IMG/VR virus record: IMGVR_UViG_2731957954_000006
Span: 1 to 4,613 of that record
Length of the DNA: 4,613 bases
Source: a virus
Lineage: Duplodnaviria; Heunggongvirae; Uroviricota; Caudoviricetes
Strand: one strand, 5' to 3'
Part shown: positions 405-4,613 of the stretch, one piece after another
How the letters are laid out: every line of letters begins with the position of its first letter
Numbering within the stretch: the stretch's first letter is position 1
The notes under the pieces: model-generated
Seen by the model: only the letters and a program-made list of their open reading frames with translations
The model's database searches: none
What the model was told of the DNA's origin: nothing
Position numbers and translations under genes: made by a program

Positions 405-489
405 AAAGTGAGCCAGTCAAATGGAAGGTATCGTTAAACTCACCGGTAGTGTCAGTGGGTCGTCTGAGATGCCTGCATGAGTTATCAGA

Positions 490-519
490 GCCATCAGTAC
501 TTAACTGGTGGCTTTTTTT
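490..519 (+). terminator. Rho-independent terminator-like hairpin upstream of the holin
   Basis: GCCATCAGT (490-498), loop ACTTA, ACTGGTGGC (504-512): a 9-bp stem with one G-U pair, followed directly by TTTTTTT (513-519). It lies 86 bp after the upstream ORF stop and 36 bp before the holin start. Confidence 0.55.
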
Positions 520-554: not shown

Positions 555-770
555 ATGTACCAGATGGAAAAAATCACAACAGGTGTGTCATACACCACGT
601 CAGCGGTGGGAACGGGCTACTGGTTCCTGCAGTTGCTGGACAGGGTTTCCCCGTCTCAGTGGGCGGCAATAGGCGTGCTGGGGAGTCTGCTGTTTGGGCT
701 GCTGACATATCTGACTAACCTGTATTTCAAAATCAGAGAGGACCGTCGTAAGGCGGCGCGGGGGGAGTAA
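555..770 (+). CDS. S: Class II holin, phage 21 S21-type pinholin (71 aa), with dual-start motif
   Basis: The translation [71 protein letters not shown] closely resembles S21 as I recall it (two TM segments, charged C-terminal tail [13 protein letters not shown]). ATG 555 and ATG 564 form the M-x-x-M dual start typical of antiholin/holin pairs. SD GGAGA at 544-548. The track ORF starting at 477 would run through the terminator hairpin and is rejected as the start. Confidence 0.9.
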
Positions 771-774
771 AGCG

Positions 775-1416
775 ATGAAGAAAAAATACGAACTGGGTGT
801 TAAAGGGATAAATAATTATCCGGATAAGATTACTGTTACTGTGGCACTGGAAATTGGTGGGTATCCGTCACTGTTGTTGCCAGATGTGGCGATTAGTCTT
901 GACCGTACTGAAGGTGCCACGCTGGAGTTTTACGAAGCTGAGGCGAAAAAGCAGGCGAAGCAGTTTTTCATGGATGTTGCTGCCGGGTTATGTGAAGGGA
1001 ACGAACCGTTGCCGGAAAAGCGCCCCATAATTTTAGAGGCGCAGGATGTGTTGATAACCTACAAAGGAAAGCTACCGGGAAGAATTACTGGTTCTCTGAA
1101 GATGCCGCCGTCAACACTGCGGTCAGAAAAAGAGGCGTCTTGTCTGCAGTCTGAGTACTCCATTACGGTTAAAAGTGCCGGAGAGGAAGGAAATAAACGT
1201 TATTTTATTGCGTCTGCACCTGATAAAGATCAGGAATGGGAGTGTAACCGGCCATCCTTTGTTGTATACGGAGATGGCGGGAAAATAACCATCTCAGAAA
1301 ATGGGAAATTAACACCGCCATCGCACCAGCATAGTGAGGCGCTCATTGAATTTGCCATTGATTACCTGAAGAACAATAAAAAGCAGGGGCTGATGAAGCG
1401 CCATGGGCTGTGTTAA
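775..1416 (+). CDS. Hypothetical 213-aa soluble protein inserted between holin and endolysin (possibly DUF1327/YdfR-like; unverified)
   Basis: ATG 775 lies 4 nt after the holin stop, with SD GGGGAG (762-767) inside the holin 3' end. The ORF is long and uninterrupted with a balanced, hydrophilic composition and no N-terminal signal peptide or TM segment. The same position in E. coli Qin prophage is occupied by ydfR, but I cannot confirm homology from memory. Confidence 0.75.
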   Translation: MKKKYELGVKGINNYPDKITVTVALEIGGYPSLLLPDVAISLDRTEGATLEFYEAEAKKQAKQFFMDVAAGLCEGNEPLPEKRPIILEAQDVLITYKGKLPGRITGSLKMPPSTLRSEKEASCLQSEYSITVKSAGEEGNKRYFIASAPDKDQEWECNRPSFVVYGDGGKITISENGKLTPPSHQHSEALIEFAIDYLKNNKKQGLMKRHGLC

Positions 1417-1584
1417 TGCTCTGGCGATAATGCCGAGAGTCACAGGTGTGAGATGTCCATACGGCTCAGCCTGAATGGATTTTACTGCATCGTGTTCTTG
1501 TGGGAGGAGTAAGAGGCACTCTGATTTTACCCGCTCATTTATGGCTTGCAGGCATAAATCATAATTATGTTGATCGTTATGCAT
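1309..1584 (-). CDS. Candidate small convergent ORF (91 aa) in the holin-endolysin spacer
   Basis: Minus-strand ATG at 1582-1584 is preceded by AGAGGA with a 6-nt spacer (reverse complement of 1585-1597). The first 55 codons or so lie in otherwise non-coding DNA; the last 36 overlap the 3' end of the 213-aa ORF. No recognisable family. Confidence 0.3.
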   Translation of the reverse strand: MHNDQHNYDLCLQAINERVKSECLLLLPQEHDAVKSIQAEPYGHLTPVTLGIIARALTQPMALHQPLLFIVLQVINGKFNERLTMLVRWRC

Positions 1585-1712
1585 GGTTAATCCTCTACTG
1601 AAATTGTCAGATATATTTCAGCCATCAGGAAAAACGCCAGTGTCCTACCGCTGGCGGGCTGAAGATTTAACATATCCAGGGATTCGGAACCGATAAATCC
1701 TGATAAATATCC

Positions 1713-2246
1713 ATGAACACCAAAATCAAATATGGCCTGTCGGCTGCCGTTCTGGCGTTGATTGCCATCGGTGCGCCTGCGCCTGATATTCTCGACCAGT
1801 TTCTGGATGAAAAAGAAGGTAACCACACAACGGCATACCGTGATGGTGCGGGTATCTGGACCATCTGCCGCGGTGCCACAATGGTGGATGGTAAACCTGT
1901 TATTCCGGGCATGAAACTGTCGAAGGAAAAATGCGACCAGGTTAATGCCATTGAACGGGATAAGGCGCTGGCATGGGTGGAGCGCAATATTAAAGTTCCA
2001 CTGACCGAACCACAGAAAGCGGGTATAGCGTCATTCTGTCCCTATAACATTGGCCCCGGTAAGTGTTTCCCGTCGACGTTTTATAAGCGGCTGAATGCTG
2101 GTGACCGCAGGGGAGCGTGTGAGGCGATTCGCTGGTGGATTAAGGACGGTGGCAGAGACTGCCGTATCCGCTCAAATAACTGTTATGGTCAGGTATCCCG
2201 TCGTGACCAGGAGAGCGCGCTGGCGTGCTGGGGAATCGACAGATAA
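1713..2246 (+). CDS. R: SAR endolysin, T4-lysozyme-type muramidase (GH24), 177 aa
   Basis: The N-terminus KYGLSAAVLALIAIGAPAP is a Gly/Ala-rich weakly hydrophobic signal-anchor-release segment. The catalytic triad spacing E-x8-D-x5-T is present (EGNHTTAYRDGAGIWT). Overall layout resembles R21. No convincing SD upstream of ATG 1713. Confidence 0.9.
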   Translation: MNTKIKYGLSAAVLALIAIGAPAPDILDQFLDEKEGNHTTAYRDGAGIWTICRGATMVDGKPVIPGMKLSKEKCDQVNAIERDKALAWVERNIKVPLTEPQKAGIASFCPYNIGPGKCFPSTFYKRLNAGDRRGACEAIRWWIKDGGRDCRIRSNNCYGQVSRRDQESALACWGIDR

Positions 2247-2340
2247 GCAGAATATTTTGCTGAAAAATAAGGTATGGCCACGCGGGCGGATAACACGAAA
2301 TCCTGCGAACTGGCGAAACGTAAGTGAATAAAAGTAAAAA

Positions 2341-2372
2341 CCCCGTTTGTTGGCACCAAGCGGGGTTTTGTG
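2341..2372 (+). terminator. Terminator-like hairpin after the endolysin (possibly bidirectional)
   Basis: CCCCG (2341-2345) pairs with CGGGG (2361-2365), with partial extra pairing TTGG/CCAA inside; followed by TTTTGTGTTT and preceded by AAAAA (2336-2340). Confidence 0.5.
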
Positions 2373-2402: not shown

Positions 2403-2585
2403 ATGGCGAAGTATAAACGAATTCTGTTGAGGTTGACTATGAAAAATGGCCTTGAACTGAAAGCGCCTGTAACTGATGACATCAGCAGAGCACTGGCTTT
2501 TGCCATTAAGTGGGTGGCGGTCGGTGTTGCTGTGTTCCCGATGCTGTATGGGCTGGCAAAACTGGTCATTGCGTTGAAATCGTGA
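2403..2585 (+). CDS. Small membrane protein, 60 aa, basic N-terminus and one C-terminal TM segment
   Basis: Strong SD AAGGGAGA (2391-2398) 4 nt before ATG 2403. Translation [60 protein letters not shown]. The GTG at 2370 used by the track lies inside the hairpin and is rejected as the start. Confidence 0.55.
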
Positions 2586-2599
2586 AGGGAGGATTAAGC

Positions 2600-2731
2600 A
2601 TGTCAGACAAACTCATAACGCTGGCGAAGATCCTCTGTGTAATTGTCGGCATTTCATTTTCACTAATGCTGGTTGCTCTTTTTCTTTCCATGGCCTGGAT
2701 GATGTTGTCTTCGTCGGGGTTGCTGGGGTGA
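2600..2731 (+). CDS. Small membrane protein, 43 aa, single TM segment
   Basis: SD GAAGGGAGGA (2585-2594) overlaps the stop of the preceding small ORF, with ATG at 2600. Translation [43 protein letters not shown]. Its TGA stop (2729-2731) overlaps the Rz GTG start (2728-2730) as GTGA. Confidence 0.5.
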
Positions 2732-3201
2732 ACATAAACCGAATGCTTTCCGCGTTTATCGTTATTCTGCTGGTGGCCTGTGGTGCGCTGTGGATGGCAA
2801 CAGACCATTACCGTGATAACGCGATTACCTACAAAGCGCAGCGCGATAACAAAGCCAGTGAACTGAAGCTGGCGAACGCAACCATTACTGATATGCAGGT
2901 GCGCCAGCGCGATGTTGCTGCGCTCGATGCAAAATACTCGAGGGAATTATCCGATGCGAGAGCTGAAAATGAAACTCTGCGCGCTGATGTTGCCGCTGGT
3001 CGTAAGCGCCTGCGGATCAACGCCACCTGTCCAGGCTCCGTGCGTGAAGCCCCCACCACCTCCGGCGTGGATAATGCAACCGGCCCCCAACTGGCAGACA
3101 CCGTTACACGGGATTATTTCACCCTCAGAGAGCGGCTGATGACGATGCACAAGCAACTGGAAGGGGCACAGGACTATATCCGCACTCAGTGCCTGAAATA
3201 A
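2728..3201 (+). CDS. Rz: Rz inner-membrane spanin (i-spanin)
   Basis: Strong resemblance to lambda Rz as recalled ([45 protein letters not shown] ... [27 protein letters not shown]), with an N-terminal TM segment and coiled-coil body. The start could be GTG 2728 (coupled) or ATG 2743. Confidence 0.9.
2954..3139 (+). CDS. Rz1: Rz1 outer-membrane lipoprotein spanin (o-spanin), embedded in the +1 frame of Rz
   Basis: Translation [61 protein letters not shown] has a lipobox (VSAC), a proline-rich stretch and the conserved [14 protein letters not shown] core of lambda Rz1. It lies wholly inside Rz. Confidence 0.85.
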
Positions 3202-3824: not shown

Positions 3825-4010
3825 TTACTTAATTATGTAATTCATACCCGAACTCTCTGTTGACAGCCTTCTTCTGCAGGCTTCAATAACCCACGCTGAA
3901 AAGTTTCCTGAACCTTTCAGATCAAGAGCGATGTTAATTTGTTCAATCATCTGGTTTGGAAATCGGATGTTGCGGGTTGTTGTTCTGCGGGTTCTGTTCT
4001 TTGATGACAT
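3825..4010 (-). CDS. Small YlcI/YnfO-like (DUF3950-type) prophage protein, 61 aa
   Basis: Translation MSSKNRTRRTTTRNIRFPNQMIEQINIALDLKGSGNFSAWVIEACRRRLSTESSGMNYIIK resembles, from memory, the small proteins encoded next to Nu1 homologues in E. coli cryptic prophages (ylcI by nohD, ynfO by nohQ). A ribbon-helix-helix-like fold is possible. Confidence 0.6.
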   Translation of the reverse strand: MSSKNRTRRTTTRNIRFPNQMIEQINIALDLKGSGNFSAWVIEACRRRLSTESSGMNYIIK

Positions 4011-4204: not shown

Positions 4205-4404
4205 CGACCGGTTACGGGGCGGCGACCTCGCGGTTTTTCACTATTTATGAAAATTTTTCAGGGAAAATCGTGTCGGTACTTCTCGAATATAACTTTTTGT
4301 TTTTTTTAATATTACATCCGTAAAGGTCCGACATGAAAGTGTCCGAAAATGCCTTTTTCTGGCGTTTTCATGTCGGGCCTTGTATTTGATAATGGGTTGT
4401 TTTC
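4205..4404 (+). other. cos: Lambda-type cohesive end site (cosN with flanking cosB)
   Basis: CGGTTACG|GGGCGGCGACCT|CGCGG matches the lambda cos junction, with the 12-nt cohesive end GGGCGGCGACCT at 4217-4228. The downstream CACTATTTATGAAAATTTTTCAGG matches the lambda cosB proximal region. The nu1 start follows at 4405. Confidence 0.85.
4324..4380. promoter_or_regulatory. Inverted repeat in cosB (candidate terminase small-subunit binding sites or RNA hairpin)
   Basis: AGGTCCGACATGAAA (4324-4338) and TTTCATGTCGGGCCT (4366-4380) are reverse complements at 14 of 15 positions, separated by 27 nt, about 25 bp upstream of the nu1 start. Confidence 0.35.
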
Positions 4405-4613
4405 ATGAAGGTTAATAAAAAGAGGCTTGCCGAAATTTTCAACGTGGACCCGCGGACGATTGAACGCTGGCAGTCTCAGGGACTCCCTTGCGCCTCCAAA
4501 GGTAGTAAGGGCATTGAATCTGTATTTGATACTGCCATGGCAATTCAGTGGTATGCGCAGAGGGAAACTGATATCGAAAACGAAAAGCTCCGCAAAGAAC
4601 TGGACGATTTGCG
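4405..4613 (+). CDS. nu1: Terminase small subunit Nu1 (N-terminal part; continues beyond window)
   Basis: Translation [69 protein letters not shown] aligns by eye with lambda Nu1 (MEVNKKQLADIFGASIRTIQNWQEQGMP ... IENEKLRREVEELR), including the winged-HTH region. Absent from the ORF track because it runs off the window end. Confidence 0.9.

What the first reader, a model, noticed from the sequence alone, without database searches (positions are those of the whole stretch)
1309..1712. Convergent small ORF with strong RBS in an unusually long spacer before the endolysin
A 296-bp non-coding gap inside a late lysis operon is unusual. On the minus strand an ATG at 1582-1584 has a near-ideal SD (AGAGGA, 6-nt spacer) and opens a 91-codon frame running antisense into the 3' end of the 213-aa ORF. 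A gene convergent to the late transcript could be expressed in the lysogen and silenced, or produce antisense interference, during lytic growth. That arrangement is reminiscent of moron, toxin-antitoxin or abortive-infection layouts. The overlap with the + strand ORF makes it uncertain which strand is really coding at 1309-1416.
Basis: seen in the sequence. Interest (0 to 1): 0.5.

Follow-up and report, generated by a model that had tools for sequence, protein, structure and literature searches.

The report
Deletion-truncated antisense prophage gene remnant
The 91-codon minus-strand ORF is a hybrid made by a 321-bp deletion that joined the first 61 codons of a real but uncharacterised small prophage gene to meaningless antisense sequence of its neighbour, so this copy is most likely a dead remnant of an ordinary moron-type gene.

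Summary
The coordinates, ATG, AGAGGA Shine-Dalgarno with 6-nt spacer and 296-bp gap are all as described. The window is a whole 4,613-bp draft contig (LJZY01000082.1). It is 100% identical to the Stx2 prophage of E. coli O104:H4, except that 321 bp are missing between 1401 and 1402.

In every intact relative the late-strand YdfR-family gene is 268 aa. A minus-strand gene of 104 aa (Stx2 phage 86 orf6, WP_000551290.1, PHROG 1853) converges on it, 9 bp apart, without overlap. The deletion removes both 3' ends.

- 1402-1584 (-) is genuine orf6 coding sequence, 61 codons.
- 1309-1401 (-) is accidental read-through. Homologues carry stops in that frame while the + frame is conserved.
- The junction and both truncated proteins were found only on this contig.

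The orf6 family is a real protein gene: the only open frame, dN/dS 0.24-0.44, confident five-helix model. No function or fold match was found.

It always faces the late operon. A conserved hairpin-containing leader (1585-1712) precedes it, and the same leader heads at least ten unrelated small ORFs in other enterobacterial phages. This fits a moron, but expression is untested. Toxin-antitoxin or abortive-infection roles have no support.

The parts
775..1401 (+). First 209 codons of the late-strand YdfR-family gene (N-terminal DUF1327 domain). The intact gene is 268 aa; here it is cut by the deletion.
   Evidence: Pfam DUF1327, E 3.7e-44. 99.4% identical to L001 1302-2702. Intact 268-aa version in phage 86. 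The + frame is conserved in homologues.
1401..1402 (.). Deletion junction. 321 bp present in all relatives (L001 2703-3023) are missing. No microhomology. The junction reads CCATGG (1401-1406).
   Evidence: The junction 40-mer is absent from 5,426 complete E. coli genomes. The 34-mer is absent from genome contigs and from IMG/VR.
1402..1416 (+). Fortuitous last four codons (HGLC) and stop of the truncated + ORF, read from the antisense of orf6.
   Evidence: Translation comparison.
1402..1584 (-). Genuine first 61 codons of the orf6-family gene (104 aa when intact; PHROG 1853; WP_000551290.1 / YP_794053.1).
   Evidence: Identical to the phage 86 orf6 N-terminus. phrog_1853, E 1.3e-24. Only stop-free frame and dN/dS 0.24-0.44. 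AlphaFold2 pLDDT 88.8 for the intact protein.
1309..1401 (-). Accidental 30-codon tail plus stop of the chimeric ORF. It is the antisense of the YdfR-family coding sequence, not a conserved reading frame.
   Evidence: Stops in this frame in L031, L054 and L055, while the + frame is conserved. The 91-aa protein is a singleton among about 15 billion proteins.
1591..1596 (-). Shine-Dalgarno AGAGGA, 6 nt upstream of the ATG at 1584-1582. Conserved as (A/C)GAGGA in E. coli variants.
   Evidence: Sequence; alignment of spacers.
1618..1662 (-). Conserved leader structure. The outer stem pairs TCAGCC (read 1662 to 1657) with GGCTGA (read 1623 to 1618). The inner hairpin spans 1635-1656. In this allele the inner hairpin has one C.A mismatch on the minus strand.
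   Evidence: Conserved in distant orf6 loci and upstream of unrelated small ORFs. RNAalifold predicts both stems with invariant pairs and no covariation. No Rfam family matches.
1669..1702 (-). Candidate promoter region for orf6. It has a -10-like TATGTT (read 1674 to 1669), a weak -35-like TTATCG (read 1696 to 1691) with a 16-nt spacer, and an imperfect palindrome at 1677-1702.
   Evidence: The TAnnnT element lies 8 nt before CAGCC in all leader variants. It falls below the consensus-scan threshold. This is inference only.
1713..2246 (+). Phage lysozyme R (177 aa), divergent from orf6.
   Evidence: Pfam Phage_lysozyme, E 2.8e-25; annotations.
555..770 (+). P21-type class II holin S, upstream of the YdfR-family gene.
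   Evidence: Pfam Phage_holin_2_1, E 9e-33.

Best explanation
Shown:
- The window is the lysis region of an O104:H4-type Stx2 prophage. A private 321-bp deletion has removed the facing 3' ends of two convergent genes.
- One gene is the late-strand YdfR-family gene, cut from 268 to 213 aa.
- The other is the anti-late small gene orf6, which keeps 61 of its 104 codons.
- The 91-codon ORF is the resulting chimera of 61 genuine codons and 30 codons of antisense read-through.
- It has lost helices 4-5 and the most conserved motif of the family (WLNEELSYLDCEWD).
- The intact orf6 family is a real protein-coding gene under purifying selection. It encodes a small five-helix protein with no recognisable family or fold.
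- It always faces against the late operon, convergent with a YdfR-like gene.

Inferred:
- This copy is very likely non-functional.
- orf6 is a moron. It would be transcribed from its own weak sigma-70-type promoter in the 128-bp spacer (-10-like TATGTT at 1674-1669, start near 1660-1662). The mRNA would begin with a conserved stem-loop leader.
- It would be expressed independently of Q-dependent late transcription, plausibly in the lysogen.
- During lytic growth the antiterminated late transcript runs antisense through it, which would oppose its expression.
- What the protein does is unknown.
For: - Deletion. Both flanks are 100% identical to NC_018658.1 and five other O104:H4 chromosomes, in two pieces spanning 4,934 bp against the 4,613-bp window.
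- Intact gene pair in relatives.
- Private junction. The 91-aa and 213-aa proteins are singletons seen only on this contig.
- Intact 315-bp orf6 in 95 of 5,426 complete E. coli genomes (132 places), always in one piece; annotated 'hypothetical protein' in all 30 listed rows.
- Coding status: only stop-free frame and dN/dS 0.24-0.44; length 103-107 aa kept down to 28-42% identity; pLDDT 88.8 and pTM 0.82.
- Tail not conserved.
- Moron-like presence and absence: BP-4795 lacks it, and PhiR5_1, Stx2_14040 and a Salmonella prophage carry different anti-late ORFs in the same slot.
- Conserved leader and -10-like element in front of orf6 and of at least ten unrelated small ORFs.
- Definition of a moron: PMC2629481.
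Against: - No sigma-70 consensus promoter on the minus strand and no intrinsic terminator for orf6 by the scans.
- No expression data of any kind were available.
- The leader stems are invariant, so there is no covariation support.
- Single-arm changes favour the minus strand in three variants and the plus strand in two.
- The window leader's fold is not better than shuffles (z = -1.49).
- The deletion has no microhomology and sits in a short draft contig, so an assembly error cannot be excluded.
- A residual function for the 61-residue N-terminal fragment cannot be excluded.
Confidence: 0.8

Rival explanations
1. The 321-bp gap is an assembly artefact. The real genome would carry the intact 104-aa orf6 and the 268-aa YdfR-family gene, and the 91-codon ORF would not exist in nature.
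For: The junction occurs only in this 4,613-bp draft contig. It has no microhomology. Everything else is 100% identical to O104:H4.
Against: Graph assemblers need shared k-mers to make false joins, and none exist at this junction (inference). The identical contig is recorded for 2 samples. A comparable 339-bp deletion with a different junction is seen in an NCBI assembly and in an assembly of a separate SRA run, so real deletions do occur here.
Confidence: 0.15
2. The 91-codon ORF is an intact functional gene that truly overlaps the 3' end of the + strand gene.
For: Good Shine-Dalgarno and ATG. The open frame was called as a gene in the source assembly.
Against: It is a singleton protein. The last 30 codons have stops in homologues. 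All 95 complete genomes with the gene have the non-overlapping 104-codon form. The conserved C-terminal motif is lost.
Confidence: 0.03
3. orf6 and the conserved C-terminal domain of its convergent late-strand partner form a functional pair. This could be an effector with its immunity or inhibitor protein, or a toxin-antitoxin-like pair. In that case losing both together is tolerated.
For: The partner C-domain (RIGRCMGxLQVAAEIE...PPFK...YLKGRI) accompanies orf6 homologues down to 33-45% and 37-39% identity, even where the pair sits in a different place. Two independent deletions remove both 3' ends together.
Against: A Salmonella relative of the partner is paired with a DUF1883 ORF instead. 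An orf6 homologue sits next to a degenerate 65-aa partner remnant. The genes are convergent rather than co-transcribed. There is no toxin, antitoxin or defence domain. The partner model has only moderate confidence (pLDDT 71.9).
Confidence: 0.15
4. The conserved hairpin region is not an RNA leader. It would be a DNA-level module boundary, a short conserved linker at which lambdoid phages exchange cassettes by homologous recombination.
For: Homology between the window and phages lacking orf6 starts exactly at the hairpin (1635/1636). BP-4795 has a junction inside it. Different cargo genes abut it. There is no covariation, and the strand evidence is mixed.
Against: The cargo start codon keeps a fixed distance of 47-51 nt. 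The -10-like element, the GGCTG partner of the outer stem and the SD-like and anti-SD-like motifs are conserved in the cargo orientation. The two roles are not mutually exclusive.
Confidence: 0.3

Closest known systems
orf6 of Stx2-converting phage 86 (YP_794053.1 / BAF34038.1) = WP_000551290.1 'hypothetical protein'; PHROG 1853 (unknown function)
   Same: The first 61 residues, the Shine-Dalgarno, the 128-bp spacer to R and the orientation are identical. The window ORF matches phrog_1853 at E 1.3e-24.
   Different: The window copy lacks residues 62-104 and carries 30 unrelated residues instead. No function has been assigned to the family.
Morons of lambdoid phages (for example lambda bor and lom, the P22 'ant moron'), as defined in PMC2629481. 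The named lambda examples are from my own knowledge.
   Same: A small gene inserted in the late operon beside the lysis genes. It is present in some relatives and absent or replaced in others. It is oriented against late transcription, like bor (bor is annotated on the minus strand after Rz in phage 86).
   Different: Independent expression is not shown. No consensus promoter or terminator was found. There is no signal peptide or lipobox, and no host-phenotype data.
YdfR (E. coli K-12 Qin prophage, DUF1327)
   Same: The + strand neighbour shares the DUF1327 N-terminal domain and the position between holin and lysozyme.
   Different: K-12 YdfR is 103 aa. The O104:H4-type protein is 268 aa with an extra conserved C-terminal domain, which the window deletion removes. 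YdfR's reported binding to the RNase E catalytic domain and possibly to RNA (PMC13232886) has not been tested for this longer protein.
Type I/II toxin-antitoxin and abortive-infection modules
   Same: Small genes on a prophage, convergent or overlapping transcripts, and a recurrent two-gene arrangement.
   Different: No toxin, antitoxin or defence-family match. No hydrophobic toxin-like peptide. The genes are not co-transcribed. Partner identity is not fixed.

Membership tests
orf6 / PHROG 1853 family | Significant profile match | tested here: met
   Window ORF: phrog_1853, E 1.3e-24, residues 1-84 matched to profile positions 57-133. Intact relative: E 8.4e-50.
orf6 / PHROG 1853 family | Full length of about 104 aa with the conserved C-terminal motif W72-LNEELSYLDC-x-WD and Q92-K93 | tested here: not met
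   Residues 62-104 are deleted and replaced by an unrelated tail. The window copy is a truncated allele.
orf6 / PHROG 1853 family | Position: convergent with a YdfR-like late gene, with a leader hairpin upstream | tested here: met
Moron (independently expressed insert in a phage operon) | Present in some and absent or replaced in other related phages at the same position | tested here: met
   Present in 95 of 5,426 E. coli genomes. Absent in BP-4795 and replaced by other ORFs in PhiR5_1 and Stx2_14040.
Moron (independently expressed insert in a phage operon) | Own promoter | tested here: inconclusive
   No consensus hit. A conserved -10-like TAnnnT lies 8 nt upstream of the leader in all variants.
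Moron (independently expressed insert in a phage operon) | Own terminator | tested here: not met
   No terminator-like site downstream of orf6 in the window. In relatives the stop lies 9 bp from the partner's stop, or the genes overlap.
Moron (independently expressed insert in a phage operon) | Expression from the repressed prophage | not testable with these tools
   Needs strand-specific RNA-seq, TSS mapping or Ribo-seq.
Toxin-antitoxin or anti-phage defence system | Match to a known toxin, antitoxin or defence protein family | tested here: not met
   Pfam, NCBIfam and PADLOC: no family for orf6 or for the partner's C-terminal domain.
Toxin-antitoxin or anti-phage defence system | Fixed cognate gene pair | tested here: inconclusive
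   The pair is kept in L055 and L056/57. It is broken in Salmonella L064 and in L058.
Described RNA family (Rfam) for the leader | Covariance-model match | tested here: not met
   No relevant hit in the window at E <= 1. None in seven leader-bearing loci at E <= 0.1.

The most novel reading that the evidence does not exclude
The orf6 remnant may belong to an undescribed mobile cassette of enterobacterial lambdoid phages.

The cassette would consist of a conserved promoter and a structured 5' leader. The leader has an outer stem CAGCC/GGCTG, an 8-bp hairpin, and an SD-like GGAGG, anti-SD CCUCU and SD triad. It drives one of many unrelated small proteins of 70-104 aa. These fall in at least nine PHROGs, all of unknown function.

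The cassette is always oriented against the late operon and convergent with a YdfR-like gene. It is found at several late-operon sites: between holin and lysozyme, upstream of the holin, and among tail genes.

If the leader is a regulatory RNA, the cargoes could be a diversifying set of lysogen-expressed factors, such as superinfection-exclusion, anti-defence or lysis-control proteins. This would be a new accessory-gene hotspot with a shared control element.
Probability: 0.3. Interest if true: 0.6.

Novelty: new member of a known kind. Interest (0 to 1): 0.3.

Why it matters
For the finding itself, little. It shows that an apparently odd overlapping antisense ORF in a lysis cassette is a deletion scar. 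It also resolves which strand codes where, and it warns against reading gene overlap in short draft contigs as biology.

The intact gene is more interesting. It is one of many small, unrelated, function-unknown proteins that lambdoid prophages keep in an anti-late orientation behind a shared leader sequence. These prophages include Shiga-toxin phages of outbreak strains.

If these genes are expressed in lysogens, they are candidates for prophage-conferred host traits or for control of lysis. The shared leader would be a handle for finding and testing them as a group.

Tried and rejected
- Pfam, NCBIfam and PADLOC on orf6 and its partner gave nothing beyond DUF1327 on the partner's N-terminus.
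- A profile search of 1.84 billion representatives found only about 21 clusters, with no annotated relatives.
- GTDB species representatives hold no relative and no junction. One alignment was too divergent for the locus finder.
- Rfam found nothing for the window or for the leader-bearing loci.
- The consensus promoter and terminator scan found no minus-strand promoter in 1585-1712 and no orf6 terminator.
- RNAalifold and single-sequence folding of the leader gave no covariation, and the window fold is not significant.
- A profile-profile comparison of orf6 with the other cargo proteins showed no homology.
- Literature searches found nothing on this gene or on the source assembly. The only relevant paper concerns K-12 YdfR.
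- I considered that the hairpin with its T-run is a terminator. I rejected this as a general role because the T-run is absent in other cargo contexts.
- I considered microhomology-mediated deletion. This holds for the second deletion (L046, an 11/12 repeat) but not for the window.

Full report
WHAT THE WINDOW IS

The ORF map and family scans show the end of a lambdoid late region.
- 3' end of a DUF6645/SASA esterase gene (up to 404).
- P21-type holin S (555-770).
- A DUF1327 (YdfR-family) ORF (775-1416).
- Phage lysozyme R (1713-2246).
- Two small ORFs, then Rz (2728-3201) with an embedded Rz1.
- A minus-strand DUF3950 ORF (3825-4010).
- A Nu1-type terminase small-subunit start at 4405.

The whole window is 100% identical to the Stx2 prophage of E. 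coli O104:H4 outbreak strains, for example NC_018658.1 2169300-2174233. However, it aligns in two pieces spanning 4,934 bp in the record against 4,613 bp here. The window is an entire NCBI draft contig, LJZY01000082.1 of GCA_001440495.1.

CHECKING THE OBSERVATION

The features are as described.
- The minus-strand ORF at 1309-1584 is 91 aa, with its ATG at 1584-1582.
- AGAGGA lies at 1596-1591 (minus strand), followed by a 6-nt spacer.
- The gap between the + ORF stop and the R start is 296 bp.
- The two ORFs overlap at 1309-1416.

ORF length alone carries no weight. Four other antisense ORFs of 90-126 aa lie over R and Rz in the same window.

THE KEY RESULT: A 321-BP DELETION

Alignment with Stx2-converting phage 86 (L001) and E. 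coli 55989 (L003) shows two blocks. Window 1-1401 matches L001 1302-2702, and window 1402 onward matches L001 3024 onward. So 321 bp (L001 2703-3023) are missing.

In phage 86, 55989 and the O104:H4 genomes the region holds two convergent genes.
- A 268-aa YdfR-family gene on the late strand.
- A 104-aa gene on the opposite strand: orf6, YP_794053.1, identical to WP_000551290.1, annotated 'hypothetical protein'.
- Their stops are 9 bp apart and they do not overlap.

The deletion removes the last 59 codons and the stop of the late-strand gene, the 9-bp spacer, and the last 43 codons and the stop of orf6. The consequences are:
- The + ORF becomes 209 genuine codons plus HGLC and a stop read from antisense orf6 (1402-1416).
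- The minus ORF becomes 61 genuine codons (1402-1584) plus 30 codons and a stop read from the antisense of the YdfR-family gene (1309-1401).
- The 296-bp gap, the overlap and the 91-codon length are therefore all deletion products.

The junction has no microhomology and happens to read CCATGG.

THE DELETION IS PRIVATE TO THIS CONTIG
- A 40-mer across the junction hits none of 5,426 complete E. coli genomes.
- A 34-mer hits nothing in 185,579 species-representative genomes or in IMG/VR.
- The 91-aa and 213-aa products are singletons among about 15 billion proteins, each seen only on this contig.
- The intact 315-bp orf6 is present in one piece in 95 of 5,426 complete E. coli genomes, at 132 places. 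It is annotated 'hypothetical protein' in all 30 listed rows.

I cannot rule out an assembly error. A false join without any shared k-mer is unusual, though, and the contig is recorded for two samples.

A similar but distinct deletion exists elsewhere. It is 339 bp long and lies between an 11/12 direct repeat, AAGCA(G/T)GGGCTG. It occurs in another prophage, in both an NCBI assembly and an independent SRA-run assembly. A third allele has an IS21-family insertion. This gene pair therefore decays repeatedly.

WHICH STRAND CODES WHERE

For the orf6 part, I compared five divergent alleles at 68-92% amino-acid identity. The orf6 frame is the only one of six without stops; the others have 5-13. It also has the lowest dN/dS, 0.24-0.44.

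For 1309-1401, the + frame is conserved as protein in all homologues. The minus frame used by the chimera carries stops in L031, L054 and L055.

WHAT ORF6 IS

It has no Pfam, NCBIfam or PADLOC family. It belongs to PHROG 1853, of unknown function.

An exhaustive profile search finds only about 21 clusters at 50% identity. These include members of 105-107 aa at 28-42% identity that keep the motif around W72, E76, Q92 and K93.

It is therefore a real small protein of unknown function. The window allele keeps helices 1-3 and loses helices 4-5 together with the most conserved segment, so I judge it non-functional. That judgement is inference.

CONTEXT AND ARCHITECTURE

In every locus examined orf6 is convergent with a late-strand gene. 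That gene's N-terminus varies: DUF1327, a coiled coil, or almost nothing. Its C-terminal domain of about 108 aa is conserved (RIGRCMGxLQVAAEIE...PPFK...YLKGRI).

The pair persists in distant relatives at 37-39% (orf6) and 33-45% (partner) identity. In those relatives it lies upstream of the holin rather than between S and R. This suggests a mobile two-gene unit.

The pairing is not absolute. A Salmonella relative of the partner faces a DUF1883 ORF. One orf6 homologue faces only a degenerate 65-aa remnant.

The partner C-domain model has moderate confidence (pLDDT 71.9) and no family match.

THE 128-BP SPACER (1585-1712) AND A SHARED LEADER

The spacer is conserved among E. coli alleles. In the orf6 sense it contains TCAGCC-CGCCAG(T/C)G-loop-CACTGGCG...GGCTGA.

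The same element sits upstream of distant orf6 homologues whose spacers have otherwise diverged. It also sits upstream of unrelated anti-late ORFs in PhiR5_1, Stx2_14040 and a Salmonella prophage. Homology between the window and phages lacking orf6 begins exactly at this hairpin.

A pattern scan of IMG/VR found 34 contigs, and 32 of them share one architecture:
- an imperfect palindrome;
- a -10-like TAnnnT 8 nt before CAGCC;
- the two stems;
- often a GGAGG...CCTCT pair;
- then a Shine-Dalgarno and a small ORF of 70-104 aa, starting 47-51 nt after the hairpin in most of them.

The ORFs are at least ten unrelated proteins. They fall in nine different PHROGs, all of unknown function, with no significant Pfam family, and none is related to orf6.

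These units sit between S and R, upstream of holins, or among tail genes. They are always convergent with a YdfR-like or 'MTLEQRV' coiled-coil late gene, and the 3' ends often overlap by 8-53 bp.

No Rfam family matches.

The caveats are substantial.
- The stems are invariant, partly because of how the loci were selected, so there is no covariation.
- Single-arm substitutions favour the minus strand in three variants and the plus strand in two, one of which is the window.
- The window's own fold is not better than shuffles (z = -1.49).
- The consensus scan finds no minus-strand promoter.

The leader may therefore be a regulatory RNA, a recombination linker, or both.

MECHANISM, WITH SHOWN AND INFERRED STEPS MARKED

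Shown:
- the deletion chimera;
- a real conserved anti-late gene;
- moron-like presence and absence among related phages;
- a shared upstream element.

Inferred:
- Transcription starts from a weak promoter. The -10-like TATGTT lies at 1674-1669, the -35-like TTATCG at 1696-1691, and the predicted start is near 1660-1662.
- The mRNA begins with a stem-loop.
- Expression is independent of Q and plausibly occurs in the lysogen.
- Expression is opposed by antisense late transcription during lytic growth.

The protein's activity is unknown. Toxin-antitoxin, abortive-infection or defence roles have no positive evidence.

COMPARISON WITH KNOWN THINGS

The closest known entity is the annotated hypothetical gene orf6 of Stx2 phage 86, in PHROG 1853. 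The window ORF is a truncated allele of it.

In kind it resembles lambdoid morons as defined in PMC2629481. From my own knowledge it is most like lambda bor in its orientation and its position by the lysis genes. Two defining features of a moron, its own promoter and its own terminator, are respectively inconclusive and not met here. Expression could not be tested.

The neighbour's N-terminal domain is that of K-12 YdfR. YdfR was recently reported to bind the RNase E catalytic domain and possibly RNA (PMC13232886). The relevance to this longer protein is untested.

VERDICT

It is wrong for this copy, which is most likely dead.

Interest in the finding itself is low. The shared-leader, variable-cargo cassette seen along the way is the part worth following up.

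Noticed in passing
window 1618-1702 (minus sense); L055, L056/57, L061, L062, L064, L066-L099: A conserved promoter-like region and stem-loop leader (CAGCC-CGCCAGTG-loop-CACTGGCG...GGCTG) precedes orf6. The same element precedes at least ten unrelated small ORFs (70-104 aa, nine different PHROGs of unknown function) in enterobacterial phage contigs. It occurs at several late-operon sites and is always anti-late. No Rfam family matches.
   Followed up: partly
L046 3001-3258 (GCA_014327235.1) and L047; L048 681-929: Two further damaged orf6 alleles exist. One is a 339-bp deletion between an 11/12 direct repeat, AAGCA(G/T)GGGCTG, which gives an 85-aa chimera with the same antisense tail. The other is an IS21-family insertion, which gives an 82-aa product.
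   Followed up: yes
window 1401-1406: The deletion junction creates CCATGG, an NcoI site, with no microhomology. This is probably coincidence, but it is the kind of junction an engineered deletion would leave.
   Followed up: no
window 775-1401; literature: K-12 YdfR has the same DUF1327 domain as the + strand neighbour. It was reported in 2026 to bind the catalytic N-terminal half of RNase E and to co-purify with RNA (PMC13232886). The late-strand partners of these cassettes are mosaics of DUF1327-like, coiled-coil and C-terminal modules.
   Followed up: partly
L070, L071, L082, L089, L096 versus L066, L098: Another cargo type (the 91-aa MSEENSKEN... protein) carries an internal deletion that removes its Shine-Dalgarno and the first 30 or so codons in 5 of the 7 contigs with this cargo type. 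This suggests these small cargo genes decay often.
   Followed up: no
window 487-515 and 2337-2369 (+): Strong intrinsic-terminator-like hairpins lie on the late strand just upstream of the holin and just downstream of the lysozyme gene. Late transcription would need Q antitermination to pass them.
   Followed up: no
window 2403-2585 and 2600-2731 (+): Two small hydrophobic ORFs of 60 and 43 aa lie between R and Rz (phrog_1115 and phrog_4906, unknown function). This stretch differs from phage 86, which has ant here.
   Followed up: no
window 3825-4010 (-): A second anti-late small gene (61 aa, DUF3950, phrog_949) lies between Rz and cos, in an AT-rich stretch.
   Followed up: no
window 4217-4228 and 4405-4613: A lambda-type cohesive-end sequence, GGGCGGCGACCT, lies upstream of the Nu1-type terminase small-subunit start (identified from my own knowledge of lambda cos). 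The contig ends inside Nu1.
   Followed up: no
window 1587-1826 (-): The frame upstream of orf6 is open for 79 codons through the leader and into antisense R. One database member is a contig-end extension through this region (P0007, 146 aa). That may explain why the PHROG 1853 profile is 159 positions long. It looks like an annotation artefact rather than a longer protein.
   Followed up: partly
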